The notes below the pieces were generated by a model that searched no databases, had not been told where the DNA came from, and saw only the letters and a program-made list of their open reading frames with translations. DNA of 34,789 bases from positions 1 through 34,789 of the forward strand of contig SBFY01000188.1 in the NCBI GenBank assembly GCA_006227085.1, written 5' to 3'. The stretch comes from Gammaproteobacteria bacterium (GTDB lineage: Bacteria; Pseudomonadota; Gammaproteobacteria; Pseudomonadales; M0112). Shown here piece by piece: positions 2,808-33,326 of this stretch. Each line of letters starts with the position of its first letter. The first letter of the stretch is position 1. The position numbers were made by a program, and so were the translations under genes.

Positions 2808-3497
2808 TTACTTGATCGACGCAATCTCTTCCGCCGTCAATTCCCGCCACTGCCCTTCTGGCAAGTCGCCCAGTACCAGCTGGCCCACCGATTCGCGGTG
2901 CAAGCCAACCACCTTGTTACCCAGGGCGGCCATCATGCGCTTGACCTGGTGGTAGCGGCCTTCATGCAGGGTCAGCAGCACTTCCGTATCACTGATGCGC
3001 GTGAGTTCCGCCGGCCGTGTCGGTTTGTTTTCACCCTGCAGCAGGATGCCATCACGGCAGCGTGATTCGGCATCGGCGACCAAGGGTTCGGCCAAGGTGA
3101 CACGGTAGCGCTTGCCGATGGTACTGCCGGGACGCGTCAACCGGTGTGTCCACTGGCCGTCATCACCCAGGATCACCATGCCGGTGGTGTCCTGATCCAG
3201 GCGACCAGCGATAATCAGGCCCTCGCGCAGCCCGGCGGGCAACAAGTCAGTCACCGGCGGCCAGGTGTCTTCGGTGTTGGAACAGACATACCCGGCCGGT
3301 TTATGCAGCATCAGGTAGCGGGCCTTGGGTGGGCTCACGGGCCTGCCTTGCCAGCAGACCGTCACGGATGGATCGACATGACTGGCGGCATTGGTTTGCA
3401 CCTCACCGCCGATCGTGACGTCACCCGCCATAATCGCCTTGCGGGCCTGCGAACGCGTCAGGGTGGTGCTGTCAGCCAGGTATTTATCCAATCGCAT
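2808..3497 (-). CDS. rsuA: 16S rRNA pseudouridine(516) synthase, RsuA family
   Basis: N-terminal S4 domain MRLDKYL, catalytic GRLDQDTTG, and EGRYHQVKRM. Confidence 0.9.
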   Translation of the reverse strand: MRLDKYLADSTTLTRSQARKAIMAGDVTIGGEVQTNAASHVDPSVTVCWQGRPVSPPKARYLMLHKPAGYVCSNTEDTWPPVTDLLPAGLREGLIIAGRLDQDTTGMVILGDDGQWTHRLTRPGSTIGKRYRVTLAEPLVADAESRCRDGILLQGENKPTRPAELTRISDTEVLLTLHEGRYHQVKRMMAALGNKVVGLHRESVGQLVLGDLPEGQWRELTAEEIASIK

Positions 3498-7197: not shown

Positions 7198-9636
7198 TCA
7201 GGCAGAGTGGATCAGGCGCAACCCCGGGGCGGGTTGGCCGACTTCATCAATCGGCTGTACCGGTGCGGCACCGTAACTGCGGGCCATGCGTGAAGCTTCC
7301 GGCGTGCCATACAAGGTGGTGCGCTGGCGATGTGAACGCCCGGCTGCATCCATCAGGCCTTCCAGGTATTCCGGTGAAAACTCCTGGCCATGCGCAGCAC
7401 CGGCCGCGCGGGTAATGCTTTCGTTCATCAAGGTGCCGCCCAGGTCATTCACACCGGCTGACAGGCACGCCGAAACACCTTCCGCCCCCAGCTTGACCCA
7501 CGAGGCCTGGATGTTTTTCACCAGCGGATGCAACACCAACCGGCCAATCGCATGCATCAGCAGTACTTCACGGAAGGTCGGGCCTTTGCGCGAGATTTTC
7601 CGCAAACCCTGTGGTGATTCCATGTGCACAAATGGCAACGGAACGAATTCGGTAAAGCCACCGGTTTCTGCCTGCAAATCGCGCACACGCAGCAAATGAC
7701 GCGCCCAGTGCAGCGGGCTTTCAACATGACCAAACATGATCGTGATGGTTGAGCGGATGCCCTGCTGGTGTGCCGCACGCATCACATCAAACCATTCATC
7801 GGTGCTGATCTTGTCGGGACAGATCACCGCACGCACTTCATCATCAAGGATTTCCGCAGCGGTGCCCGGCAAGGTGTTCAAGCCGGCCGCTTTCAATTGC
7901 GCGAGGAATTCCGGCAATGACAGGCCAAGGGTTGTCGCCCCTTGTGTGATTTCCAGTGGCGAAAACGCATGGATATGCATGGAAGGACACACGGCCCTGA
8001 TGGCTTCACAGACATCCAGGTAATGCTGGCCGGTGTAATCCGGATGGATGCCACCCTGCAGGCACACTTCAGTCGCACCACGCTCCCAGGCCTCCAGCGT
8101 ACGACGCTGGATTTCTTCCATGGAGATGTCATAGGGCTTTTCGCGCAGGTTCTCGCTCACCTTGCCTTTCGAGAAGGCACAGAAGCGGCATTTGAAATAA
8201 CAGATATTGGTGTAATTGATGTTGCGATTGACGACATAACTGACACAGTCACCATTCACGGATTGGCGCAGGCGATCGGCCGCCTGGCACACCGCCGCGA
8301 TTTCGTCACCACGCGCCGCAAACAATCGCACGACTTCCTGTTCATCCAGTCGTTCACCGGCTTCGGCTTTCTGCAGGATGGCTGGCAAGTCAGCGCCAAC
8401 ATGGACAGGGGATTTCTGCAACACATCCAGCAATTTTTTCGGCGGTGGCAACACGGCACCGGCATGCCACTGGTCATCACGTGCCAATCCTTCGGCATCG
8501 CTCAAGGCCTGCAAGGCCGGGATCACGCCAGCATCCACCCACTGTTTACGATCTCGCCCATAGGCGGGATACACGGTCAAACGTTCCACCAGCACTTTGC
8601 CGGCTTGCGCGGTTTCTGCTGCCAACTTGTCGAGATGCGGCCAGGGCGCTTCCGGATTCACAAAGTCCGGTGTCACCGGGGACACACCGCCCCAATCGTT
8701 AATACCGGCGGACACCAGTTTCGGCAACACTCCGGGGCTCAGGTTAGGCGGTGCCTGGATCGACATGGCCGGGCCAAACACCAATCGCGCGATCGCCAGC
8801 GTCCACAACATCTCGTCGAGATCCGGTTCCGGGCTTTCGCGCATCAGGGTATCGGCCTTGGCGCGGAAATTCTGGACGATGATTTCCTGCACATGGCCAT
8901 GACGCTGATGCACATCGCGCAAGGCCAGCAGGGATTCGATGCGTTCTTGCCGGGTTTCACCAATACCGATCAGGATGCCACTGGTGAAAGGCACCTTGGC
9001 CTGGCCGGCACGCTCCAGTGTTTGCAAGCGCACAGCCGGGATCTTGTCGGGTGAACCGTAATGCGGCATGCCGGGTTCACACAGGCGATCCGATGCCGAT
9101 TCCAGCATGATGCCCATCGACGCCGACACCGGCCGCAAGAAAGCGATTTCCTCGTCGGTCATGCAACCGGCATTGATGTGCGGCAGCAAACCGGTTTCCG
9201 CCAGCACACGGCCAGCCACATGGGCAACATATTCCAGCGTGGTTGCAAAACCCATCTCGGCCAAGGCGTCACGCGCCACCCGGTAACGCAATTCCGGTTT
9301 CTCACCCAAAGTGAACAAGGCTTCCTTGCAACCTTGCGCAGCACCTTGCCTCGCCAGTGCCACGACATCGTCCGGGGACAGGTAAGGTTTTTCGAGGTGG
9401 CGCGGGGTCTTGGCAAAGGTGCAGTAATGGCAAACATCGCGACACAGGTGGGTCAGCGGGATGAACACCTTGCGGGAATAGGTCACGGCATGCGGGAAGC
9501 CGGTATCACGCAACACACTGGCGGCTTCCAGCAAGGGCGGTGACAAAGGCACACTCGCCAGGGCCAGCGCATGATCACGGGAAAGCGCCTGCCCTTGTTG
9601 CCATTGCCGGGTGATCTGTTCGGGAGTCAGGGTCAT
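7198..9636 (-). CDS. fbiC: Bifunctional FO synthase (fused CofG-CofH radical SAM)
   Basis: Two CxxxCxxC motifs (CRDVCHYC, CYFKCRFC), plus TYSRKVFIPLT, NRNINYTN, PGTAAEILDD and DLGGTLMNESITRAAG. Confidence 0.95.
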   Translation of the reverse strand: MTLTPEQITRQWQQGQALSRDHALALASVPLSPPLLEAASVLRDTGFPHAVTYSRKVFIPLTHLCRDVCHYCTFAKTPRHLEKPYLSPDDVVALARQGAAQGCKEALFTLGEKPELRYRVARDALAEMGFATTLEYVAHVAGRVLAETGLLPHINAGCMTDEEIAFLRPVSASMGIMLESASDRLCEPGMPHYGSPDKIPAVRLQTLERAGQAKVPFTSGILIGIGETRQERIESLLALRDVHQRHGHVQEIIVQNFRAKADTLMRESPEPDLDEMLWTLAIARLVFGPAMSIQAPPNLSPGVLPKLVSAGINDWGGVSPVTPDFVNPEAPWPHLDKLAAETAQAGKVLVERLTVYPAYGRDRKQWVDAGVIPALQALSDAEGLARDDQWHAGAVLPPPKKLLDVLQKSPVHVGADLPAILQKAEAGERLDEQEVVRLFAARGDEIAAVCQAADRLRQSVNGDCVSYVVNRNINYTNICYFKCRFCAFSKGKVSENLREKPYDISMEEIQRRTLEAWERGATEVCLQGGIHPDYTGQHYLDVCEAIRAVCPSMHIHAFSPLEITQGATTLGLSLPEFLAQLKAAGLNTLPGTAAEILDDEVRAVICPDKISTDEWFDVMRAAHQQGIRSTITIMFGHVESPLHWARHLLRVRDLQAETGGFTEFVPLPFVHMESPQGLRKISRKGPTFREVLLMHAIGRLVLHPLVKNIQASWVKLGAEGVSACLSAGVNDLGGTLMNESITRAAGAAHGQEFSPEYLEGLMDAAGRSHRQRTTLYGTPEASRMARSYGAAPVQPIDEVGQPAPGLRLIHSA

Positions 9637-21901: not shown

Positions 21902-24900
21902 TCAACCACCAAACCCCAACCAGCCGCCATATGCCACACCTTGGTAAGGTGAAGGACTGCTACTGATTAACCCCTGACTACCCATACCAAAGGAGCTACT
22001 GGCCCAAGAAAAAGGCTGCGCGACATCCAATGAAGTAAACGATAAGCCAACGGCCCCGAACCCGGATTGCACACGGTCTCGCAGACCTCCAAAGACAGCC
22101 TCACCCGGATTACCCTGTGCCCAATAATTGCCGCCGGAAAAAGGCTTCCAATCATCCAGAACCGTGGTTAGCAAACCCGCTACCTCGGGCACACCCCATG
22201 CTTGCCACAAGTTTTCCAGCCATTGATTACTTGTCGGCAGGGCAGCTTCCCCTGCCGGCTCTTCCACTACGACTTCTACCGGATCAACACTGCCTTGTGG
22301 CCCCACACGGATATCGACCACACCCGAAGCATATTCCAGCCCATCACTGACCCGGTAAAAGAGCTGGTGCTGCCCCTCGCTGGCATGGATATTGAGCACT
22401 GCGGAGCGCGTTAACTGGACATCCAGTTCACGCGATATATCCCAGACATCCGTGACGACAAGGTAGTCACCGTCGATATCGGATGACGCCTCCAGTAACT
22501 CCAGCAATGGCAAGGAAAACTCTTGTTGCTCGCTGGTGACTGAAAAGCCGTTGGTAACAGGTGCATGATTGCTTTCCATCACAGCAGACACTGATGCTTC
22601 AATCGGGTTGGCATCTGACCATCGGCTGATGTTGTCACTGATTTGTTCAATACGGAATGCGTCATCAACAAACCAGTCGCGAATGCGCCATTGGGAATAC
22701 ATCGGGTCCGGCAATACCTCATTGACTGGCAGATTACGCATCCTGAGCAGCAGGTCATCGCCCGACCGGAGGACCTCATCAACACCCATCGCCTTAGGCT
22801 CATGGATAATCGAACTGATCAATACATCTTCACCGCCAGGATCCCGGAAATTCACCGTTGGCGGCAAACCATTCACCCATATCATGGAAAACGGTGACCA
22901 CCTGTCATCACCGTCCGTACCTACCATCTCTTGCACGGGAGACACCGGCAGCCAGTCCACCTGATCTGCACCCATTCGCATACTGATCGACTGGGCAGAT
23001 CGCATGGATCCATCGCTGTTAGCCATTAGCAACTGGTCATCGTCAGCGTAGCGCACCGACAACATCCCGTTGTGTATCCCAACAAATACCTGATCCGGCA
23101 AGACATCCCCTGAAAACAGCAATTCCACGGGGGCATCAGTGAACAACCGATCAACACCTGAGCCAGCGACCAGCTCCACTTCAACCTGGCCAGCCGTAAC
23201 TGCATAGTCCTGCTGGCCCGGAGTCATCACCAGGGTGGCAATATTCCCACCCGCATCAAGCTGTAACGATTCTGTGAATGCCGGCAAGATCCAACGACTA
23301 TCAGTCGCTGCATTCGCCACGACACGGTCATACCCCCCATCGGCGTCTTCAGTGATCACTGGTCGATAGGCACCAATGTCATACACATCATCGTCACTGC
23401 CACCCACCAACTGGTTCATGTCATCACCAGCCACCAGCCGGTCATTGCCGGAACCACCGGATAGCATCACCGGCGATGCACCACCCACCAAGGTGTCATC
23501 ACCCCAGTCACCAAAAAATTGGCCTTCACTGTTGCCGGTATACACCGTGTCATCACCGTAACCCCCATGCCAGTCATCGCCCGCATAGGCAACATCAACA
23601 AAACTGGCGAGGTCGTTGTAATCGCTGCCTTGCTGCTGCGTTTGGCTATCGCGCCGGCCTGCCAGCAAGTCTCCCAAGGCCATCGTTTCATAACCCTGGT
23701 TACCGCTATCCCAGTAATACAACTGCCAGGAAGCAGCCGCTGCCGATTCCAGCTGGATAATATCCCCGGAATAAACCGAATAAGTAATAAACACAGCCCC
23801 ATTGACCGCGTTCGCCTCGAGATCCGCCCGCTGGATACCACCTTCAAAGTACAACACGCTATCCGCATCTTCGTCGCGCAAGACATCAAAGCCATCGCCG
23901 GCAAAGAAACGGTAACGGTCTGCACCGGAACCACCTTCCAGCAAGTCACTCCCGATGCCCCCTTCCAGCCAGTCATCGCCATCACCCGCAATCAGGAAGT
24001 CATCACCCGCTCCACCAGCAAGCCAGTCATTACCGGCCTCACCATGTAGCCAGTCCCTGTCCGCATCACCATTGAGCCAATCGGCATCGGCACCGCCATA
24101 CAAAGTGTCCATGCCAGCACCACCATGGATCACATCCTGCCCGGCATCACCGTAAGCCGTATCGTTGCCAGCACCGGCTTCCAACTGGTCATTGCCAGCA
24201 CCGCCACGCAACACATCGTCATCGGCGCCACCGTCCAGCCAATCATCACCAGACCCACCGAGCAGGTGGTCTGTGCCCGCCTCACCAAACAGCCGGTCAC
24301 GGCCACCCTGCCCCGCCGACTCCAACACAGGATCATCGCCGTGCAAGTAATCATTGCCAGCGCCACCCTGCAGCAGGTCATCGCCGCCGTTGCCATACAA
24401 GGTATCCCGGCCCAGACCACCCAGCAGCACATCATTGCCATGCAAGGCCAATGGCAATTCGGCAAAAGCCACCGGATCAACGCCCTCCAGCGCACTGTTA
24501 ATGGCACTCGGGCCGAATGCGGTAAAACCATAGAGGAATGCCGATTCATCAAAAAACGGATCGCGATTGATGCGATCACCCATCAACACATCATCATCGG
24601 CACCACCGCTCAGTACGTCGTTACCAAGCTCGCCAAACAGCCAGTCATTGCCTGTGCCACCATCCAGCACATCGTTATAGGAAAGGAGCGCTGCATCACC
24701 CCAGGGTTGTAACACATCGCTGGTATCCAGCATCGCCATCAATGGCCGGAGATAGCGGAAGCGATCTTCGCCACCAACAGCCTCGTCACGCACCCATGCG
24801 TGATAGATCCCGAAACGGGAATCCCCCCACAAGTAGTCCACGCCGGCACCACCGGACAACCAGTCATCGCCGGGATTGCCATACAAGTGATCGTTATCAC

Positions 24901-27112
24901 CCTGCCCCAGCAGGATGTCTTCGCTATTGCCACCCAACAGCCAGTCATCGCCGGCACCACCATCCAGGAAATCCCTGTCCGCAGGTATGTCCTTGCCGAT
25001 GTAATCGAGGAACGACTGCGCAAAAAGAAAGTCACGGCCTTCACCGCCATACACAAAATCCGAACCGGGGCCGCCGAACAGCAAGTCCATGCCACCACCA
25101 CCTTGCAACCAATCGCGACCACTGTTGCCATGGATTTCATCATCAAGCTGGCCACCGGTAGCGAAGTCCGTCAAACGTGACCCGAAAAAATACGCTTCAT
25201 TGAGATCGCCCTCTTCCACGCGCCCCTTGGCCAGCGTTGTTTCACCATACGCTGGCGACCATTGCAGGCTGGGCTCGCCGGATAACAGGGCAATATCCTG
25301 TTCCGCTGGCTGCGCTGGATCGAAGAAAGCGTCCGCACCTTCTGCCATGGGTAGCCACAGGCTATTCGCAAAACCGTTATCCCGGTCGAGCAATAAATAT
25401 CCGCTGTCGGTCTTGAGCAGGAGTTGATGGTCGCCATCGGTCGCCGAAAGACCCGTGAACCCTGCTTTCGACGTGAGCGCGCCCAATGCATCACCAGCAA
25501 CGCGTAATTCATCACCTGTCCACAAGGTTTCGGCGTAACGATCATGACCCTCCTGATCATGATTCCAGCCCAGCTCAATCACATCCTTGCCGTGACCACC
25601 CACAAAGACATCGTGGCCATTACCGCCCGCCAGGGTGTCATTGCCATCACCGCCTTCCAGCCAGTCATTGCCATGCAGGCCATATAAGGCATCAACACCG
25701 GCTGCACCGTACAAGTGATCAGCGCCCTCGCTGCCCAATAACTTGCCACCAGCCGCAAGGTTATAGGCCACTTGCATGCCTGTGATCCCATCCACCGCTG
25801 ACGCACTGCTGAACACCCTGTTGCTGCGCAAATCCCGGAATTGGATGGCGCCCGGCAAACCGACATAGCCCGTCGCCGATGGGGTATCGCTGCGATTGGA
25901 CTGCATGAGGCCGGTATAAAAAGCACTGCGATCGCGCCAGAACATGTCACTGTATTGCTGGGGTGCATACTCCGTAGCAGATTGACGGGCGGCACCTGCC
26001 GACTCACCACCCAGCAGTGAAAATGCCTGCGCATTCATGGCGGCATACCGTGCTGCGCGACCTTCAGCCGTATCGGCATCCGCCATGGCTTGCAGCCAGG
26101 ATGCACCATGAGCCGCCATTGGCGTGATCGCGACAGCGTTGTCATAAGCCGCCAGGGCCTGGAACAGGATTTCGACATCCGTGGCAGCATCCGGCACTGA
26201 TTCCAGTCCTGCCCATGCCACCAACTGGGCATGAATGGTTTCCAGTGAGGTCGATGCCGTAGCGGAGGTCGCATCGAGGATGCGATAGATATCCTGCAAA
26301 CCTTCCGGCAGCAGCAAGGCATTATCCAGGTGCTGCAGTACGCGATAGATCGCAAGGCTTTGCACCATCTTTGCAATGGCATGGTTTTCTGACGCTGATT
26401 CCGATGCCTCGATAAACACCGGCGTCGAGCCACCCGGGCGAGCAAACCAGCCATTTTCAGCTGCCGTCAGCTCGATGCCCTTGTCCGCATAGAAGTTATG
26501 CACCTTGGCTGGATCCAGTGGCTTGTCCTGCACCAGCGGCAGGATATGGTTCAACCAAAGACGATCCAGGGGTGCAATGCCGGCACCGTTGAAGGTGTAC
26601 ACCTCCTTCACCAGTTCCGGGTATTTATAGGCCGCCAGCAAGGCAAGATGGCCACCAAGACTGTGCCCCGCAAACGTCACCTGCCCCTTGTAAGCGGCAA
26701 CCACTTGCCCGTCGTCGGTGATCAGGCCAGCGTTTTTCAGGAAACGGTCAACCGAGGAGGCCTGACCGATACGGAAGAAATCCGCGAGGAATTGCAGGCC
26801 AACGGCCAAAGAACCGTCATTGAGGATATCCATCAGCGAAGACAGTGCGTCACCACTACTGCCAAAATTGAATTCCGTGCCGCGAAAGGCAACGGTTGTG
26901 CCACCGGAAGGGGCGGTCAGGACGAAGGCGTCGAGGCCGGATAATGCATCGGCCTTATGAGTAGCCTTAAAGTTTTTGAGATAAAACTCAGCTTGTGCTT
27001 CTGAAAAATCTCTATTAATCAGCGAATTAACTATATCGCCGACTTGATCATTATATAAATCAACATACGCGGCATCAGCCAGCAAAGCAGAAAGATATAT
27101 TTTGCTATCCAT
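21902..27112 (-). CDS. RTX (hemolysin-type Ca2+-binding repeat) protein with an N-terminal alpha/beta-hydrolase (lipase) domain and a C-terminal cadherin-like domain
   Basis: VAFRGTE, GHSLGG, YTFNGAG and NHAI in the first ~260 aa. Dozens of GGxGxDxL nonapeptides follow, then IRDWF.....RIEQI and NHAP...DIDGD...YRVSDG. Confidence 0.9.
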   Translation of the reverse strand: MDSKIYLSALLADAAYVDLYNDQVGDIVNSLINRDFSEAQAEFYLKNFKATHKADALSGLDAFVLTAPSGGTTVAFRGTEFNFGSSGDALSSLMDILNDGSLAVGLQFLADFFRIGQASSVDRFLKNAGLITDDGQVVAAYKGQVTFAGHSLGGHLALLAAYKYPELVKEVYTFNGAGIAPLDRLWLNHILPLVQDKPLDPAKVHNFYADKGIELTAAENGWFARPGGSTPVFIEASESASENHAIAKMVQSLAIYRVLQHLDNALLLPEGLQDIYRILDATSATASTSLETIHAQLVAWAGLESVPDAATDVEILFQALAAYDNAVAITPMAAHGASWLQAMADADTAEGRAARYAAMNAQAFSLLGGESAGAARQSATEYAPQQYSDMFWRDRSAFYTGLMQSNRSDTPSATGYVGLPGAIQFRDLRSNRVFSSASAVDGITGMQVAYNLAAGGKLLGSEGADHLYGAAGVDALYGLHGNDWLEGGDGNDTLAGGNGHDVFVGGHGKDVIELGWNHDQEGHDRYAETLWTGDELRVAGDALGALTSKAGFTGLSATDGDHQLLLKTDSGYLLLDRDNGFANSLWLPMAEGADAFFDPAQPAEQDIALLSGEPSLQWSPAYGETTLAKGRVEEGDLNEAYFFGSRLTDFATGGQLDDEIHGNSGRDWLQGGGGMDLLFGGPGSDFVYGGEGRDFLFAQSFLDYIGKDIPADRDFLDGGAGDDWLLGGNSEDILLGQGDNDHLYGNPGDDWLSGGAGVDYLWGDSRFGIYHAWVRDEAVGGEDRFRYLRPLMAMLDTSDVLQPWGDAALLSYNDVLDGGTGNDWLFGELGNDVLSGGADDDVLMGDRINRDPFFDESAFLYGFTAFGPSAINSALEGVDPVAFAELPLALHGNDVLLGGLGRDTLYGNGGDDLLQGGAGNDYLHGDDPVLESAGQGGRDRLFGEAGTDHLLGGSGDDWLDGGADDDVLRGGAGNDQLEAGAGNDTAYGDAGQDVIHGGAGMDTLYGGADADWLNGDADRDWLHGEAGNDWLAGGAGDDFLIAGDGDDWLEGGIGSDLLEGGSGADRYRFFAGDGFDVLRDEDADSVLYFEGGIQRADLEANAVNGAVFITYSVYSGDIIQLESAAAASWQLYYWDSGNQGYETMALGDLLAGRRDSQTQQQGSDYNDLASFVDVAYAGDDWHGGYGDDTVYTGNSEGQFFGDWGDDTLVGGASPVMLSGGSGNDRLVAGDDMNQLVGGSDDDVYDIGAYRPVITEDADGGYDRVVANAATDSRWILPAFTESLQLDAGGNIATLVMTPGQQDYAVTAGQVEVELVAGSGVDRLFTDAPVELLFSGDVLPDQVFVGIHNGMLSVRYADDDQLLMANSDGSMRSAQSISMRMGADQVDWLPVSPVQEMVGTDGDDRWSPFSMIWVNGLPPTVNFRDPGGEDVLISSIIHEPKAMGVDEVLRSGDDLLLRMRNLPVNEVLPDPMYSQWRIRDWFVDDAFRIEQISDNISRWSDANPIEASVSAVMESNHAPVTNGFSVTSEQQEFSLPLLELLEASSDIDGDYLVVTDVWDISRELDVQLTRSAVLNIHASEGQHQLFYRVSDGLEYASGVVDIRVGPQGSVDPVEVVVEEPAGEAALPTSNQWLENLWQAWGVPEVAGLLTTVLDDWKPFSGGNYWAQGNPGEAVFGGLRDRVQSGFGAVGLSFTSLDVAQPFSWASSSFGMGSQGLISSSPSPYQGVAYGGWLGFGG

Positions 27113-29122: not shown

Positions 29123-30406
29123 TTATCCTTTATTTTGTTCAAACGGGATGTGGTAGCGGGCGCGATAAGCACCGAGCTCGGCTTCGACCTGTTCCCCGCT
29201 CAAACCGAAATCGGCGAGTGAATAGTCGTGCTTGCCATGCTTGTGCTGGCGGTTTTTCTCGAGCCAGGCCTGCATGGCAGACCAGGTGGCATCGGTCAAC
29301 GGGCGGCCGATGAAGGCATAAATGCGCTCCATGCTGCCACGCAGGTCAGTGTTGATATCGTGATACTGGATGTCTATTTGCTGTTCAGCCGGAATGCGCT
29401 CACGAATACGCGCGGTTTTGTCGACCATCCAGCGGGTCTTATGCAGCCAGTCGCGGCCAATGAAGTGCGGGTCGATATGGTCAGTATCGCGCACCATCGC
29501 ATTCCAGACTGTGCTGCACACGCTGCCCACGGCAGCCTGCGGGTCACGGTGTGAGCAGATGATTTTGGCCTGCGGGAACACGGTCATCAGGCAATCGAGA
29601 TCGGCCATGTGTTGCGGGGTTTTCAGGATCCACGGTTGCTGCACGTAATTTGGGTCACGCTGTTCGCGGAACCACTCCAGCAGCTTGAGCATCTTCACCA
29701 GGTATTCGTACACGAAGGTCTGGTCGTGTTCCATGATGTATTGGCCGAATGAAGGTATGCGCTTCATCGCCTCGTGAATCTGGCTGCCGAAGGCGTGCTC
29801 CATCGGGCCCAGTTCCTCTTCCACTTCCAGCGCGCCCAAGGGGTGCACGGCGGCGATTTGCGGGCCCATCCACAACACGATCTTGAGGGCTTGCTCGATG
29901 TTGGTCTGGCGCGGATCGGGTTCACCGGCTGGCGTGGTGAAACTCTCCGGCCACGGCACCGGATACACCGACTCCCAGCTGTGCAGGCAACTGAACCCGC
30001 TATCGCAGGCCAGCAGGCGATGCAGGCGGGTGGTACCGGTACGGGCAAGACCCACGATCACGACCGGCGGCAACAATTCCCGCTGCAGGATTTCCGGGTG
30101 CTGCTTGAACAGCGCCTCAGCCCAGAGGCGATCCTTGAACACCCGGATAAACGATTGCCGGGTCAGGTAGCGGCCAATCGGGTTCAAATCCGCTTCAGTT
30201 TCGATGGCCTGCAGCAAGAAGCGTAATTGCGGCCAGAAGGGTTCAGTGCCGAGATCTTCCAGCCCCGTGGCTTTACGGGCAGCGGCGATGAGGCTTGCCT
30301 CAGAGAGGTCGGCCTTGCCGAGGCCGAGCGGCCACAACAGGCGCAGCAGGCCATTGATGAGGCGCATGGGCAGGCGGTGATAGGCAGTCGCCGGGGGTAA
30401 TGCCAT
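29123..30406 (-). CDS. Sulfotransferase family protein (mycobacterial Stf-like)
   Basis: PAPS-loop IVGLARTGTTRLHRLL, WILKTPQH, HRDP...VGSVCS, YSLADFGL. Start placed at MALPP; the longer ORF overlaps the next gene. Confidence 0.88.
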   Translation of the reverse strand: MALPPATAYHRLPMRLINGLLRLLWPLGLGKADLSEASLIAAARKATGLEDLGTEPFWPQLRFLLQAIETEADLNPIGRYLTRQSFIRVFKDRLWAEALFKQHPEILQRELLPPVVIVGLARTGTTRLHRLLACDSGFSCLHSWESVYPVPWPESFTTPAGEPDPRQTNIEQALKIVLWMGPQIAAVHPLGALEVEEELGPMEHAFGSQIHEAMKRIPSFGQYIMEHDQTFVYEYLVKMLKLLEWFREQRDPNYVQQPWILKTPQHMADLDCLMTVFPQAKIICSHRDPQAAVGSVCSTVWNAMVRDTDHIDPHFIGRDWLHKTRWMVDKTARIRERIPAEQQIDIQYHDINTDLRGSMERIYAFIGRPLTDATWSAMQAWLEKNRQHKHGKHDYSLADFGLSGEQVEAELGAYRARYHIPFEQNKG

Positions 30407-30475: not shown

Positions 30476-31390
30476 ATGAAACATGCCTCCCGCCAGAAAC
30501 TGTTCGACGCCCTGCAAAAGGTGGAAACCGCCGGCCTGCCGCCGGACAAGGCCATCGCCCTGCTGCCGGCCAGCGGCAGCTCGGAACAGGTACTGACGCT
30601 GACCGCCCTGCAAAAGCTGCTGAAGCAGGACATGACCCTGTCAGAAGCAGCCCTCAAGAGCGGCCTGTTCGAACCCCATGAAGTCGGCCTGATCCGCATC
30701 GGCGAGAAACGCGGCAAATTGCTGGAAACCTACAGCTGGCTGGCACGCCATTACGGCAACCTTAATGGCCGCTGGCAGGAACTGTATAGCGCCCTGCGAC
30801 TGCCATTGATCGTCTGGGTCGTTGGCACGGCATTCCTCAAGTTAATGGTATTAACCAAGGGCGGGATCGGTGCCGGTGGCTTCATCGGCCTGCTGCTGAT
30901 ACCCGTGGCCAGCCTGCTCGCTGCCCGGGGCTTTTACAGCCAGTACGCCAATCGCGCCCTGCCACCATGGGCGACGGAGCTGTTGCTGAAGATCCCCGGC
31001 TTGCGTGAACAGTTACGCCAATACCATGAAGCCGTGTTTTGCCATCACCTGGGCATCGCACTGGAGGCCGGCCTGCCACTGCCCGAAGCCGTGGGCATTG
31101 CCATTCATGGCATCGGCAACCCGCGCATCCGCGAATCCTTTGGCACCATCGAAAGCGCGGTGGAATCCGGCAGCACACTCAGTGACGCGGTGAGCTTCAG
31201 TGACGCCATCAGCCGCCCCGAAGGCACTACCGCTATCGGCACCGGTGAATCCACCGGAAAATTGCCGGAAGCACTCAGTAACTACGCACGCAAACTCGCC
31301 AATGCCAACGACAGCCAATGGGATGCCATTGCCAGTCGCGTGGCGCCACTTGCCTGGACGATCGTGATCCTGGTGTTACTGCTGGCGTAG
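30476..31390 (+). CDS. Type II secretion system F / PilC family platform protein (orphan)
   Basis: Two T2SSF-like repeats (AGLP...A, G.TLS.A, IGEKRGKL / TGESTGKLPEAL) separated by TM segments. Confidence 0.8.
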   Translation: MKHASRQKLFDALQKVETAGLPPDKAIALLPASGSSEQVLTLTALQKLLKQDMTLSEAALKSGLFEPHEVGLIRIGEKRGKLLETYSWLARHYGNLNGRWQELYSALRLPLIVWVVGTAFLKLMVLTKGGIGAGGFIGLLLIPVASLLAARGFYSQYANRALPPWATELLLKIPGLREQLRQYHEAVFCHHLGIALEAGLPLPEAVGIAIHGIGNPRIRESFGTIESAVESGSTLSDAVSFSDAISRPEGTTAIGTGESTGKLPEALSNYARKLANANDSQWDAIASRVAPLAWTIVILVLLLA

Positions 31391-31463
31391 GCGAGCCGGC
31401 ATTCCCAGCCATCTTCATTCGCAAACCAGCGGATGACTGTTCGCAACCCGATCGTGCTGGCAT

Positions 31464-31503
31464 AAAAAAACCGGGCTGGTAAGGAGACCTACCAACCCGG
31501 TTT
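31464..31503 (-). terminator. Intrinsic terminator (luxR and/or the candidate sRNA)
   Basis: CCGGGTTGGTA-GGTCTCCT-TACCAGCCCGG-TTTTTTT on the minus strand. Confidence 0.85.
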
Positions 31504-31535
31504 CAGGTTTGAGCGTACATGCCACTGTCACTCAT
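31464..31535 (-). ncRNA. Candidate quorum-sensing-induced small RNA (~72 nt) in the luxR 3' region
   Basis: Bounded by a lux-box/-10 promoter and a U7 terminator. The 5' hairpin UGAGUG-ACA/UGU-A-CGCUCA and the terminator stem each contain a G-U pair that only works on the minus strand. Confidence 0.55.
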
Positions 31536-31540
31536 GATTG

Positions 31541-31586
31541 ATTCTAGTCTCACATTGGCAACCTACAACTACCATGATTGGTAGCG
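31541..31586 (-). promoter_or_regulatory. lux-box-like site (31567-31586) plus -10 element TAGAAT (31541-31546)
   Basis: Minus strand CGCTACCAATCATGGTAGTT fits NNCT-N12-AGNN and is 16/20 identical to the box at 32511. Exactly 20 nt separate it from TAGAAT. Confidence 0.7.
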
Positions 31587-31626
31587 TCAGCCCGCATATG
31601 CAAGAAAAATTGCACTGGGTGTAAAA

Positions 31627-32475
31627 CTATTGGATCAATCGCAGTTCCTGCGCGATTTTTGCCAAGGCATGTCCGGATGCGCGCGGTTGTTTGAGAATGC
31701 GACGAACTTGCTTGAGATGGAAATGCACCGTTTCAGGTTCAACCCGCAAATCCCTGGCAACACTCTTGGCGGTTGCCGATGCACTGCGGGCAAAAATCCG
31801 CAACACATTAGCCTGCTTGTCTGTCAGCGTTAACCCATGCTCACCATCGACCGTGACGGATTTGATGCAGAAATCACAACCCAGCGTGTTATCGATGATG
31901 GCATCCATAATCACTGACAAGGCATACAAGCCCTTGTACACAGCATCCGTCACCTTGATTTCCGAGCGCCCCTCATTGGCACAGCTGATAAAAATGGCAT
32001 GGCTCTCGGAACCGAATGCGAAATAAACCCCATCATGCACACCATGCTGTTCAGCCAAGGCATACACCGAAAGGTACTTGTTTTTAAGGCTTTCATTAGT
32101 GGCCATGTCCAGGCTGGCCTGCAAGGCATCCCGCCAGGTGCCGTACCGCACCCGGCCATTCTCATGGCCCAACTGGCTCGCCAATAACACCGGGTCATGA
32201 TGGAAAAGTTTTTTCTCGCGGTAAGTTGCTTCCCAGTCTTTTGAGAAATTACTCATGGAATGACTGTAGGTGGCCAGTTTCAACTCGCCCAACAGATCCT
32301 CGCGCCAGAAAGTGAATCGCCCATAACGAAACCCCAACTGGTCAACCGCGCCGAAAAAGGCATCGCTGGCTCGCTGGATACAGCTCCGGCTCTGTTTCCC
32401 GCAATGACCCTGATGCAAGGGCAGCAAACTGACGATTCCCGCCAACGCGCCGTAATCAGGTCCCGGAGGATTCAT
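31627..32475 (-). CDS. LuxR-family regulator with an autoinducer-binding domain and a C-terminal HTH
   Basis: W...Y (DWEATY), DP (HDPV), W (GTW) and G (HDG) match AHL-pocket residues. LTDKQ..VL...TVHFHLKQV forms the HTH. Divergent from a luxI homolog; the exact start is uncertain. Confidence 0.85.
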   Translation of the reverse strand: MNPPGPDYGALAGIVSLLPLHQGHCGKQSRSCIQRASDAFFGAVDQLGFRYGRFTFWREDLLGELKLATYSHSMSNFSKDWEATYREKKLFHHDPVLLASQLGHENGRVRYGTWRDALQASLDMATNESLKNKYLSVYALAEQHGVHDGVYFAFGSESHAIFISCANEGRSEIKVTDAVYKGLYALSVIMDAIIDNTLGCDFCIKSVTVDGEHGLTLTDKQANVLRIFARSASATAKSVARDLRVEPETVHFHLKQVRRILKQPRASGHALAKIAQELRLIQ

Positions 32476-32510
32476 GGCATGTCTCGCTTATATAGTTATT
32501 TTGACTAACA

Positions 32511-32530
32511 AACTACCAAACATGATAGTT
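32511..32530 (+). promoter_or_regulatory. lux-box-like 20-bp imperfect palindrome between luxR and luxI
   Basis: AACTACCAAACATGATAGTT has 7 of 10 positions palindromic, fits CT-N12-AG, and ends 73 bp upstream of the luxI ATG. Confidence 0.75.
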
Positions 32531-32603
32531 ACTGCAATGTTGCCTTGGTGGTGTCATTCATTGGGTTTAACCACATGACTCACAACCAACAAGGAGACAC
32601 CAA

Positions 32604-33269
32604 ATGAGCGCTAAACATTATAGTGTGATTATCAATGCCGCCCCAAGCATTAATCCGGAACTCATGACCCGCTTCGGTCAGCTTCGCTACCAGTGCTTTG
32701 ATGCCAATGACCCCAATGTGAACATGGATCATTTCCGTCGCACTGAACTGGATCACTTTGACCGGATGGATGACACAACCTGCATCATGGTGATCGCAAC
32801 GGAAAATAGCCGCCAGGAACTGGTCAGCGCCATGCGCCTGCGTCCAACCACCAGTGACTACGAACTGGAAATGGATTCCTATCGCTACCTGACCGAAGGC
32901 GTTTCCCTGCCGAAAAGCAGCACTATCATGGAAGGCAGTCGCTGGGTAGGTCGCAGCAGCCGCACCCCTGAAGGCATGGTCAGCACCGGCATGCTGATGA
33001 ATGCGCTATACCGCTACTGTCTTACACTCGGTGTAAAAAATATCATTGGAACCATCTCGACCAAAAGCGAGCACTGGCTAGGGAAACGTGCAGCCTCTGC
33101 GCAGCGGGAGAGCAACCCGTATTACTCGCAACGCGATGACCTGACTATCATGATTTCAAACATCGCCCTTGACCAAACCTTCCTCCACGCGGCCAACCAT
33201 TTACTGAACCAGGGCCTCGGTCATTTCGACATCACCGAGCTTGAACTGGCCACGAAAAAAGCCGCATAA
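32604..33269 (+). CDS. LuxI-family acyl-homoserine-lactone synthase (atypical)
   Basis: LRYQCF, ELDHFD, SAMRLRPT and EGSRW match the LuxI R-F-E-D-D-R-E-S-R framework. AAGGAG RBS. Confidence 0.82.
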   Translation: MSAKHYSVIINAAPSINPELMTRFGQLRYQCFDANDPNVNMDHFRRTELDHFDRMDDTTCIMVIATENSRQELVSAMRLRPTTSDYELEMDSYRYLTEGVSLPKSSTIMEGSRWVGRSSRTPEGMVSTGMLMNALYRYCLTLGVKNIIGTISTKSEHWLGKRAASAQRESNPYYSQRDDLTIMISNIALDQTFLHAANHLLNQGLGHFDITELELATKKAA

Positions 33270-33275
33270 AAATAG

Positions 33276-33317
33276 CGGGAATAAAAAAACCGCCTGCGGG
33301 CGGTTTTTTTATTCCCG
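33276..33317. terminator. Bidirectional intrinsic terminator between luxI and the P450
   Basis: Perfect 19-bp inverted repeat CGGGAATAAAAAAACCGCC-TGCG-GGCGGTTTTTTTATTCCCG, giving a U7 tract on both strands. Confidence 0.92.
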
Positions 33318-33326
33318 GACCTTGGA

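What the first reader, a model, noticed from the sequence alone, without database searches (positions are those of the whole stretch)
31464..31586. Hidden lux-box-driven small RNA gene downstream of luxR
Seen in sequence: the gap after luxR holds a second copy of the luxR-luxI operator (CGCTACCAATCATGGTAGTT vs AACTACCAAACATGATAGTT, 16/20 identical). On the minus strand it is followed by exactly 20 nt and then TAGAAT. About 72 nt follow, folding into a 5' hairpin, an AACCUGAA linker and a U7 terminator; both stems use G-U pairs that favour the minus strand. Established: LuxR activators bind 20-bp CT-N12-AG boxes centred near -42.5, which is this geometry. Inference: this is an AHL-induced, 3'UTR-type sRNA that shares the luxR terminator and would be missed by ORF-based annotation. 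No sizeable gene follows on that strand.
Basis: partly seen in the sequence, partly recalled or inferred. Interest (0 to 1): 0.88.

Follow-up and report, generated by a model that had tools for sequence, protein, structure and literature searches.

The report
Predicted LuxR-controlled small RNA after luxR
Just after a quorum-sensing regulator gene lies a second, perfect copy of that regulator's DNA docking site, placed to switch on a short, conserved, hairpin-forming RNA, so the signalling system probably has a small RNA as an output, though no expression data exist.

Summary
Box 2 (31567-31586) is a perfect CTACCA-N4-TGGTAG palindrome and the best match to that dyad in the 2.2-Mb assembly. 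The luxR-luxI operator is second best. On the minus strand exactly 20 nt separate box 2 from TAGAAT, and such hexamers are rare here. A 72-nt stretch follows that folds far better on the minus strand (-37.2 against -25.5 kcal/mol).

New evidence:
- A roughly 92%-identical metagenomic contig keeps TAGAAT. It has 2 changes in 31457-31534, both pair-preserving on the minus strand, against 21 in the 87 flanking bases.
- The sister species lacks the whole 1.9-kb luxR-luxI block, hairpin included.
- The regulator is a divergent AHL-receptor-type LuxR by Pfam and by predicted fold.

Not shown:
- No expression data exist.
- LuxR binding and signal dependence are untested.
- Whether box 2 is conserved in the relative is unknown, because the difference table was cut at 31555.

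The best reading is a LuxR-driven small RNA that ends at the luxR terminator (about 0.5). LuxR-type-activated sRNAs next to luxR genes are already known (YenS, EsaS), so this would be a new variant of a known kind, not a new kind.

The parts
31567..31586 (.). Box 2: a 20-bp lux-type operator with a CTACCA-ATCA-TGGTAG core that is a perfect 6+4+6 palindrome. It lies 40 nt after the luxR stop codon.
   Evidence: It is the only 12/12 site in the 2.2-Mb assembly. It is intergenic.
31547..31566 (-). The 20-nt spacer between box 2 and the -10 hexamer. It contains TTGCCA, a -35-like hexamer.
   Evidence: The X7 relative has 3 substitutions in the visible part (31547-31555) and no indels.
31541..31546 (-). 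Predicted -10 hexamer TAGAAT, a 5/6 match to TATAAT.
   Evidence: It is unchanged in the roughly 92%-identical X7 contig. Hexamers of this quality occur at 0.07% of positions genome-wide and 0.3% in AT-richer DNA.
31464..31535 (-). Predicted small RNA of about 70-72 nt. The start is inferred at 31533-31535 and the end lies in the U tract.
   Evidence: Fold of -37.2 kcal/mol, z = -6.55, with a minus-strand preference. The X7 relative has 2 substitutions in 31464-31534. No Rfam family matches.
31510..31534 (-). 5' hairpin of 9 pairs with one bulge and the loop GUGGCA.
   Evidence: -9.5 kcal/mol, with 3 of 200 shuffles as good. The X7 relative shows 0 changes.
31502..31509 (-). Linker AACCUGAA. 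Its first five bases are unpaired in the minimum-free-energy fold.
   Evidence: Unchanged in X7.
31464..31504 (-). Rho-independent terminator, a 17-pair hairpin with a U7 tail. It would serve both luxR and the predicted RNA.
   Evidence: -27.7 kcal/mol, z = -7.07. The two X7 changes at 31489 and 31501 keep pairing on the minus strand (G-U to A-U and A-U to G-U), and the second breaks pairing on the plus strand. No other terminator lies between the luxR stop codon and this hairpin.
31627..32475 (-). luxR, a divergent AHL-receptor-type regulator of 282 aa.
   Evidence: Pfam Autoind_bind at 38 bits against a cut-off of 23. The AlphaFold model (pLDDT 88.4) matches SdiA, QscR, TraR, RhlR, LasR and CviR. 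It is the only such gene in the assembly.
32511..32530 (.). Box 1, the operator between the divergent luxR and luxI genes (11/12 on the dyad score).
   Evidence: Nearby -10 candidates are TATAAG at gap 18 towards luxR and TGTCAT at gap 21 towards luxI.
32604..33269 (+). luxI, an AHL-synthase-type gene of 221 aa.
   Evidence: Pfam Autoind_synth at 26.8 bits against a cut-off of 24.
33283..33310 (.). Bidirectional terminator (A7, a GC stem, then T7) between luxI and the convergent P450 gene.
   Evidence: Read.
31391..33326 (.). A 1.9-kb block (spacer, terminator and RNA, box 2, luxR, box 1, luxI, terminator). It is present here and absent between the same two genes in the sister species G001.
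   Evidence: In G001 the T2SSF-like gene and the P450 gene are separated by 38 nt that hold an unrelated hairpin.

Best explanation
Box 2 is a second, high-affinity binding site for the locus's own LuxR-type regulator. It sits in class-II activator geometry: the box, then 20 nt, then TAGAAT, which puts the box centre near -42.5. From this position LuxR would recruit RNA polymerase to start a roughly 70-nt minus-strand RNA near 31533-31535. That RNA ends at the same U7 terminator that ends the luxR mRNA.

This makes the RNA a 3'UTR-type small RNA with its own promoter. It would be made in step with LuxR activity and would also be present at a basal level as the tail of the luxR mRNA. Its 5' hairpin loop and linker are the likely pairing surfaces. 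Hfq is encoded in the genome.

- Shown: the box, the spacing, the -10 hexamer, the fold, the strand preference, conservation of the -10 hexamer and the RNA body in one relative, and membership of the module in the luxR-luxI block.
- Inferred: LuxR binding, the transcription start, the dependence on signal and its direction, and any trans-acting function.
For: - Box quality: box 2 is the only 12/12 match to the operator dyad in 2.2 Mb, and box 1 is one of two 11/12 sites. Of the 42 sites scoring at least 10/12, 33 lie inside ORFs.
- Promoter geometry: TAGAAT lies exactly 20 nt from the box. Hexamers of that quality occur at 3125 of 4,417,248 positions genome-wide and at 679 of 213,974 positions in windows of 48% GC or less. 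That gives about 0.9% for gaps 19-21 on one strand and 1.9% on both strands.
- Published geometry: lux boxes are 20-bp palindromes centred at -42.5 (passage read in PMC4471428).
- Conservation in the X7 contig (depth 12.1, about 92% identical, spanning 31088-33300): 15 substitutions and 7 indel events in 31391-31456; 2 substitutions in 31457-31534; 3 in 31535-31540; 0 in TAGAAT; 3 in 31547-31555. No indel lies between 31429 and 32802. Two of 78 against 21 of 87 gives Fisher p = 6e-5. The conserved block coincides with the predicted transcript.
- Structure-preserving changes: both changes in the terminator keep pairing on the minus strand.
- Competing -10: the overlapping alternative AATCAT carries 2 changes in X7, while TAGAAT carries none.
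- Strand asymmetry of folding.
- Linkage to the cassette: the module is absent from G001 together with luxR and luxI.
- Supporting context: there is one LuxR-type gene in the assembly, and Hfq is present.
- Precedent: YenR and EsaR activate sRNA genes next to their own genes.
Against: - There are no expression data of any kind. The start site, LuxR binding and signal dependence are all inferred.
- Conservation of box 2 in the relative is unknown, because the rows stop at 31555.
- The comparative evidence rests on a single contig, so there is no real covariation test.
- The terminator would be conserved anyway, as the luxR terminator. Against the contig's mean divergence of 7.7%, 2 changes in 78 bases is only p = 0.055.
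- The 72 nt are also the luxR 3'UTR, so constraint could reflect mRNA stability or processing rather than an independent RNA.
- The plus side of the palindrome also has a -10-like AAAAAT at gap 18.
- No target stands out statistically.
- No homologous RNA was found in the 300 other genomes of the order that were searched, and none in Rfam.
Confidence: 0.5

Rival explanations
1. Box 2 is a real LuxR site, but its job is not to make a small RNA. Bound LuxR might hinder polymerase that is finishing the luxR mRNA. It might pair with box 1, 944 bp away, so that the two sites flank and autoregulate luxR. It might act as a high-affinity decoy that sets the response threshold. Or it might fire the plus-strand side and give an RNA antisense to the luxR 3' end.
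For: The two best operator-like sites in the genome flank luxR exactly. The box is a perfect palindrome, so it has no intrinsic direction. On the plus strand AAAAAT lies at gap 18, a 4/6 match with A2 and T6. All luxR transcripts must read through box 2, because no terminator precedes it.
Against: This reading does not explain why a 5/6 -10 hexamer sits at exactly the class-II distance on the minus strand (about 1-2% by chance) and is conserved while its neighbours vary. It also does not explain why the conserved block starts at the predicted start site. As far as I recall, LuxR-type activators are not known as strong roadblocks or loop formers. No call tested that.
Confidence: 0.22
2. The conserved 72 nt are simply the functional 3'UTR of luxR. 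They could be a stabilising terminator plus an upstream hairpin, or an sRNA cut from the luxR mRNA by RNase E. On this reading TAGAAT is not a promoter element.
For: The region is co-linear with luxR and shares its only terminator. The conservation data cannot separate a processed RNA from a primary one.
Against: A perfect operator copy lies upstream at the correct distance from a conserved -10 hexamer. Conservation drops at 31535-31540 and in the spacer (6 changes in the 15 visible non-hexamer positions), although these bases would also be 3'UTR.
Confidence: 0.13
3. The short transcript is a leaderless mRNA for a 10-residue peptide. An AUG lies at 31535-31533 and a stop codon follows ten codons later.
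For: An ATG lies exactly where the start site is predicted. The luxR gene itself seems almost leaderless if TATAAG at gap 18 from box 1 is its -10 hexamer.
Against: In the X7 relative the first base of that codon is changed (31535), which would turn AUG into GUG. By my recall, leaderless translation depends strongly on a 5' AUG. The ORF lies inside a stable hairpin. No evidence bears on the peptide. An ATG within one base of a given position is about a 5% chance event, by simple arithmetic.
Confidence: 0.05
4. Box 2 and TAGAAT are a functionless leftover or a coincidence, and only the luxR terminator is real.
For: There are no expression or binding data. The comparison uses only one relative.
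Against: A 12/12 dyad match in a 236-nt gap has an expectation of about 1e-5, by arithmetic on the result. It lies beside the gene of the regulator whose operator it copies. The -10 hexamer and the spacing are conserved in the relative.
Confidence: 0.08

Closest known systems
YenS of Yersinia enterocolitica (activated by YenR)
   Same: It is a small untranslated RNA encoded beside the luxR-type gene. The LuxR homologue activates its transcription, and it feeds back on the quorum-sensing genes by acting on yenI mRNA (section 'YenS' of PMC3493969 read).
   Different: YenS is 105 or 165 nt and is activated when signal is low. By my recall it is divergent from yenR and shares that gene's box. Here the RNA is about 72 nt, lies downstream of luxR on the same strand, has a dedicated second box, and shares the luxR terminator. 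I held no YenS sequence, so I made no sequence comparison. Complementarity to luxI here is only 8 nt.
EsaS of Pantoea stewartii (activated by EsaR)
   Same: It is an sRNA promoter controlled by the LuxR homologue through a 20-bp palindromic box next to the regulator gene (passages of bioRxiv 10.1101/2025.04.03.643276 read).
   Different: One shared esa box serves a bidirectional promoter. It lies about 60 bp upstream of the esaS start and overlaps the esaR -10 hexamer. EsaR binds without signal. Here a separate box lies at about -42.5, after the regulator gene.
3'UTR sRNAs with their own promoter that share the upstream gene's terminator (DapZ and MicL type)
   Same: The predicted architecture matches: a promoter at or after the end of a coding gene, and an RNA that is co-terminal with that gene's mRNA.
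   Different: These examples are recalled and come from no call. By my recall, none is driven by the product of the very gene whose terminator it shares. That auto-coupling would be the distinctive point here.
VqmA-VqmR of Vibrio cholerae
   Same: A quorum-sensing receptor and transcription factor whose main direct output is an adjacent sRNA gene.
   Different: This example is recalled and comes from no call. VqmA is not an AHL-type LuxR, and vqmR lies upstream of vqmA.

Membership tests
AHL-receptor-type LuxR regulator (the protein assumed to bind the boxes) | N-terminal autoinducer-binding domain | tested here: met
   Pfam PF03472 scores 38 bits against a cut-off of 23 and 39 bits in the genome scan. 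A W-x3-Y-x8-DP motif can be read at W81, Y85, D94 and P95 and is conserved in the 36-sequence family alignment. That these are the canonical signal-binding residues is my recall.
AHL-receptor-type LuxR regulator (the protein assumed to bind the boxes) | C-terminal GerE/LuxR-type helix-turn-helix and the overall two-domain fold | tested here: met
   Pfam GerE scores only 19.2 bits, below its cut-off of 23.5, and PDB sequence search found nothing significant. The full-length model (pLDDT 88.4, pTM 0.83) matches full-length SdiA, QscR, TraR-DNA, RhlR and CviR at Foldseek E-values from 3e-11 to 4e-7.
AHL-receptor-type LuxR regulator (the protein assumed to bind the boxes) | Paired with a LuxI-type synthase | tested here: met
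   The divergent neighbour scores 26.8 bits on PF00765 against a cut-off of 24.
lux-box class-II activated promoter | 20-bp dyad of CT-N12-AG type that resembles the system's own operator | tested here: met
   The box is 16/20 identical to box 1, has a perfect 6+4+6 dyad, and is the best such site in the genome.
lux-box class-II activated promoter | Box centred near -42.5 from a mapped transcription start | tested here: inconclusive
   The geometry fits if the start lies 6-8 nt after TAGAAT (-42.5 rule read in PMC4471428). No start site has been mapped.
lux-box class-II activated promoter | Binding by LuxR and dependence on the signal | not testable with these tools
   This needs EMSA or footprinting and reporter assays.
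3'UTR-type sRNA with its own promoter | A discrete transcript with a primary 5' end and a shared Rho-independent terminator | tested here: inconclusive
   The terminator is shared.
3'UTR-type sRNA with its own promoter | Sequence constraint on the RNA body beyond that of neighbouring non-coding DNA | tested here: met
   Two of 78 positions changed against 21 of 87 in the flanks of one roughly 92%-identical contig, Fisher p = 6e-5. This rests on one relative only.
YenS/EsaS-type sRNA | Divergent from the luxR gene and sharing its promoter box | tested here: not met
   Here the element lies downstream of luxR, on the same strand, and has its own box. The comparison is.
YenS/EsaS-type sRNA | Base-pairs with the luxI-type mRNA | tested here: inconclusive
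   An 8-nt complement to the luxI Shine-Dalgarno sequence lies in the terminator loop and 3' arm, and the cofold does not open the hairpin. Of 2010 crude translation-start regions, 124 have an exact complement of at least 8 nt.

The most novel reading that the evidence does not exclude
The 1.9-kb block is a self-contained, transferable quorum-sensing module whose only direct outputs are its own genes and one small RNA.

- LuxR appears to have just two good operators in the genome, one for luxI and luxR and one for the RNA. On this reading the whole quorum response of the host would be carried out post-transcriptionally by a 72-nt RNA that is physically the tail of the luxR gene.
- The RNA's 5' hairpin loop is complementary over 8 nt to the start-codon region of luxR.
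- Its terminator loop is complementary over 8 nt to the luxI Shine-Dalgarno sequence. This hints at built-in negative feedback.
- The same 5' seed matches 12 nt across the start codon of a lipoprotein amidohydrolase gene (C180:19670).
Probability: 0.15. Interest if true: 0.75.

Novelty: new variant of a known kind. Interest (0 to 1): 0.55.

Why it matters
LuxR-type regulators are usually thought of as switching on protein-coding operons. Cases where the direct output is a small RNA are few (YenS, EsaS) and come from enterobacteria.

If this prediction holds, it would show the same logic in an uncultured sediment bacterium with a very divergent LuxR. Only 53 representative proteins out of 1.84 billion match it at E-value 0.001 or better.

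The layout would also be new. The regulator's gene and its RNA output would share one terminator, so the RNA is made both with luxR and in response to LuxR. ORF-based annotation would miss the system's output entirely.

The module is compact at 1.9 kb and could be tested directly by cloning it into a laboratory host.

Tried and rejected
**Homologous loci**
- The LuxR protein, alone and as alignment A1 with P0002, found no locus in genome contigs or metagenome contigs. Those caps are now exhausted.
- It found no match in 0 of 60 relatives, 0 of 400 genomes of the class, or the plasmid collection.
- The only close relative is P0002 at 77% identity. Its DNA could not be fetched, because the look-up of encoding contigs is declared closed and I did not call it.

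**RNA families and RNA homologues**
- Rfam gave nothing at gathering level on the whole window. Around the locus it gave only sub-threshold chance hits.
- A DNA search with 31457-31600 against 300 other genomes of the order gave only 20-36-nt matches in 7 genomes, at E-values from 7e-4 to 6e-3 per genome. Most fell on the terminator tail. I treat these as chance.

**Expression**
- No RNA holder was listed among the 22 runs, so expression could not be examined.
- Parts of the stretch without contig cover in runs X2, X3 and X5 say nothing.

**Target prediction**
- The duplex scan used the first 36 nt of the RNA against 10,694 candidate start regions.
- The best hit was C180:19670 at -39.7 kcal/mol. 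Seven dinucleotide shuffles reached between -34.3 and -38.5, so 0 of 7 matched the observed value, and the margin is small. I keep this as a lead only.
- In the same scan the luxI start region ranked 9860 of 10,694 and the luxR start region ranked 679.
- The G001 counterpart of the amidohydrolase gene matched only 214 nt at 68% identity, so its start region could not be compared.

**Other sites and readings rejected**
- The other exact CTACC-N6-GRTAG sites, C157:2978 and C196:23003, score only 10/12 or less on the dyad.
- C76:4858 scores 11/12 but lies at the end of an ORF. I did not pursue it.
- My first box pattern, had the wrong spacing and found nothing. I corrected it.
- The 38-aa minus-strand ORF at 31415-31531 runs through the terminator into DNA that is full of indels in X7. 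I rejected it as a gene.
Full report
**Layout.**
- The window is one whole contig (C90) of a 2.2-Mb, 226-contig, 91%-complete assembly.
- At its right end lie, in order:
  - a T2SSF-like gene (30476-31390, +; PF00482);
  - a 236-nt gap;
  - luxR (31627-32475, -);
  - a 128-nt gap;
  - luxI (32604-33269, +);
  - a convergent cytochrome P450 gene (33327-34742, -).
- The luxR-luxI gap holds box 1 (32511-32530).
- The gap after luxR holds box 2 (31567-31586), TAGAAT (31546-31541 on the minus strand) and a strong hairpin with a U7 tail (31504-31464 on the minus strand).

- Box 2 has a perfect 6+4+6 dyad, CTACCA-ATCA-TGGTAG.
- I scored every position of the assembly against that dyad.
  - Box 2 is the only 12/12 site.
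  - Box 1 is one of two 11/12 sites. The other, C76:4858, sits at the end of an ORF.
  - 39 further sites score 10/12, and 33 of all 42 sites lie inside crude ORFs.
- So the two best intergenic operator-like sites in the genome flank luxR.
- The assembly has only one Autoind_bind gene.

**The regulator is a true, if distant, AHL-type LuxR.**
- Pfam Autoind_bind passes its cut-off, but GerE does not.
- PDB sequence search finds nothing significant.
- An exhaustive HMMER scan of 1.84 billion representatives finds only 53 relatives at E-value 0.001 or better. After P0002 at 77% identity, the next best is 34% identical.
- An AlphaFold model built on 36 of these sequences (pLDDT 88.4) matches full-length SdiA, QscR, TraR, RhlR, LasR, CviR and YenR structures and nothing else at the top of the list.
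- The premise that this is a LuxR-LuxI pair therefore stands.

**Promoter geometry.**
- On the minus strand exactly 20 nt separate box 2 from TAGAAT.
- With a start 6-8 nt after the hexamer, the box centre falls at -41.5 to -43.5. This matches the published lux-box position (passage read in PMC4471428).
- In this 58%-GC genome, hexamers that match TATAAT at 5/6 or better with A2 and T6 are rare. They occur at 3125 of 4,417,248 positions overall and at 679 of 213,974 positions in windows of 48% GC or less.
- One falling at gap 19-21 on either strand therefore has an expectation of about 0.4-1.9%.
- The simple scanner proposed a different, overlapping sigma-70 pair, TTGCCA-16-AATCAT.
- The plus side of the palindrome has AAAAAT at gap 18, so an antisense start into luxR cannot be dismissed.
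- Box 1 shows TATAAG at gap 18 towards luxR. Towards luxI it shows only TGTCAT at gap 21.

**The RNA.**
- The 72 nt from 31535 to 31464 fold at -37.2 kcal/mol (z = -6.55). The fold has a 9-pair 5' hairpin with the loop GUGGCA, a short open linker, and a 17-pair terminator hairpin with a U7 tail.
- The same DNA read as plus-strand RNA folds at -25.5 kcal/mol.
- The 5' hairpin is -9.5 kcal/mol on the minus strand (3 of 200 shuffles as good) against -5.1 on the plus strand (64 of 200).
- No terminator lies between the luxR stop codon and this hairpin. The 72 nt are therefore also the last part of a roughly 163-nt luxR 3'UTR.
- No Rfam family matches.

**Comparative evidence from a relative.**
- Close homologues could not be found in the genome or metagenome contig collections, in 60 relatives, or in 400 genomes of the class.
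- Twenty public DNA runs hold parts of the stretch. Laying four of them gave one informative record. It is an X7 contig of 2453 nt at depth 12.1. It covers 31088-33300 with 158 substitutions and 13 gap letters over 31362-33300, which is about 92% identity.
- Its differences are strikingly uneven:

| Region | Coordinates | Changes in X7 |
|---|---|---|
| Spacer beyond the terminator | 31391-31456 | 15 substitutions, 7 indel events |
| Terminator, linker and 5' hairpin | 31457-31534 | 2 substitutions |
| Predicted start-site bases | 31535-31540 | 3 substitutions |
| TAGAAT | 31541-31546 | 0 |
| Visible part of the spacer | 31547-31555 | 3 substitutions |

- There is no indel anywhere from 31429 to 32802.
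- Two of 78 against 21 of 87 gives Fisher p = 6e-5. Against the contig-wide mean of 7.7%, it is only p = 0.055.
- The two changes inside the block fall in the terminator stem.
  - The change at 31489 turns a G-U pair into A-U on the minus strand.
  - The change at 31501 turns A-U into G-U on the minus strand, and it would break the pair on the plus strand.
- The competing -10 candidate AATCAT carries two of the changes, while TAGAAT carries none.
- The conserved block thus coincides with the predicted transcript, and the conserved hexamer is the predicted -10.
- Two limits apply. This is one contig. The table was cut after 31555 (156 rows not shown), so I cannot say whether box 2 itself is conserved.

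**The module belongs to the quorum-sensing block.**
- In the sister species G001, the DUF1214 gene, the T2SSF-like gene and the P450 gene are contiguous.
- Both the sulfotransferase gene (29123-30406) and the whole stretch 31391-33326 are missing there.
- The 38-nt spacer that G001 has between T2SSF and P450 holds a different hairpin.
- So the U7 hairpin and the RNA-like region are not an old T2SSF terminator. They come and go with luxR and luxI.
- luxI has its own bidirectional terminator at 33283-33310.

**Mechanism proposed.**
- LuxR binds box 2 and activates a class-II promoter. This yields a roughly 70-nt RNA that ends at the luxR terminator.
- The same sequence is also made as the tail of luxR mRNA.
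- Hfq is encoded in the genome.
- The direction of signal control is open, because YenR and EsaR activate their sRNAs without signal.
- Only box 1 and box 2 look like good operators, so the RNA may be the main output of the system. That inference rests on a two-site consensus and an assembly that is 91% complete.

**Targets are leads only.**
- The best of 10,694 candidate start regions is a lipoprotein amidohydrolase gene (C180:19670; PF07969). It has 12 nt of perfect complementarity across its start codon and 7 nt just before its Shine-Dalgarno sequence, at -39.7 kcal/mol.
- Seven shuffled seeds reached between -34.3 and -38.5, so this is weak.
- The RNA also has 8-nt exact complements to the luxR start-codon region (from the 5' hairpin loop) and to the luxI Shine-Dalgarno sequence (from the terminator loop and 3' arm).
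- Exact complements of at least 8 nt occur in 124 of 2010 crude start regions. Both quorum-sensing genes having one is about a 0.4% event, but I noticed it post hoc. The cofold does not open the terminator hairpin.

**Comparison with what is known.**
- LuxR-type-activated sRNA genes beside the regulator gene are established for YenS and EsaS. For YenS I read the section of that name in PMC3493969. For EsaS I read passages of bioRxiv 10.1101/2025.04.03.643276.
- Both are reported as divergent from, or sharing the box of, the regulator's own promoter. The present case differs in three ways: a dedicated second box, a position downstream on the same strand, and a shared terminator.
- That layout resembles 3'UTR sRNAs with their own promoters, such as DapZ and MicL. 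Those examples are recalled and were not checked in any call.
- My two searches for AHL-type LuxR-driven sRNAs (listings only) showed no paper describing this layout. They are no proof that none exists.

**Verdict.**
- It remains unproven in its essentials: transcription, LuxR binding and signal dependence.
- I rate it a new variant of a known kind, with moderate interest.

Noticed in passing
window 31391-33326, compared with L009 (G001:C8): The whole luxR-luxI block is missing between the T2SSF-like gene and the P450 gene in the only other species of the genus. I saw no repeats at the junctions. This could be an insertion here or a deletion there.
   Followed up: partly
window 29123-30406 (-): A sulfotransferase gene (PF13469, E-value 1.3e-37) is also absent from the syntenic stretch of G001. 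It is a second small strain-specific insert within 2 kb of the first.
   Followed up: partly
window 31627-32475 (-), alignment A2: This LuxR clade is rare, with 53 representatives in 1.84 billion proteins. It carries a nearly invariant C-x2-C (C200 and C203) in the linker before the DNA-binding domain, and further N-terminal cysteines (C25 and C32) that are kept in the 77%-identical homologue P0002. A metal or redox role is conceivable.
   Followed up: no
window 32476-32510 (-): If TATAAG (gap 18 from box 1) is the luxR -10 hexamer, the luxR mRNA would start only about 5 nt before its ATG, with no Shine-Dalgarno sequence. That would make it nearly leaderless. A 3-codon out-of-frame ATG overlaps the start.
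   Followed up: no
window 31640-31660 (+): A short hairpin followed by TTTTT lies on the plus strand inside the luxR 3' end, about 30 nt after the plus-side -10-like AAAAAT of box 2. It could end a tiny antisense RNA, or it could be chance. The scan found 2 terminator-like sites against 1.8 expected.
   Followed up: no
window 21902-27112 (-): A 1736-aa ORF has 12 RTX calcium-binding repeat stretches (PF00353, E-value 8e-73) and weak esterase and cadherin-like hits. It is probably a large secreted repeat protein.
   Followed up: no
window 30476-31390 (+): A T2SSF-family gene of only 304 aa stands apparently alone, with no other secretion or pilus genes visible beside it in this stretch.
   Followed up: no
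window 7198-9636 (-): An 812-aa protein has two radical-SAM stretches and a CofH/MqnC C-terminal region. This looks like a fused FO synthase (CofG/CofH) of F420 biosynthesis. That naming is my recall.
   Followed up: no
L014 (G000:C180:19300-21100), gene at 371-1729: A lipoprotein-type amidohydrolase (PF07969) has a start region with 12 nt of perfect complementarity to the predicted RNA's 5' hairpin and 7 nt to its linker. It is the best hit of the genome-wide scan but is not clearly above the shuffles.
   Followed up: partly
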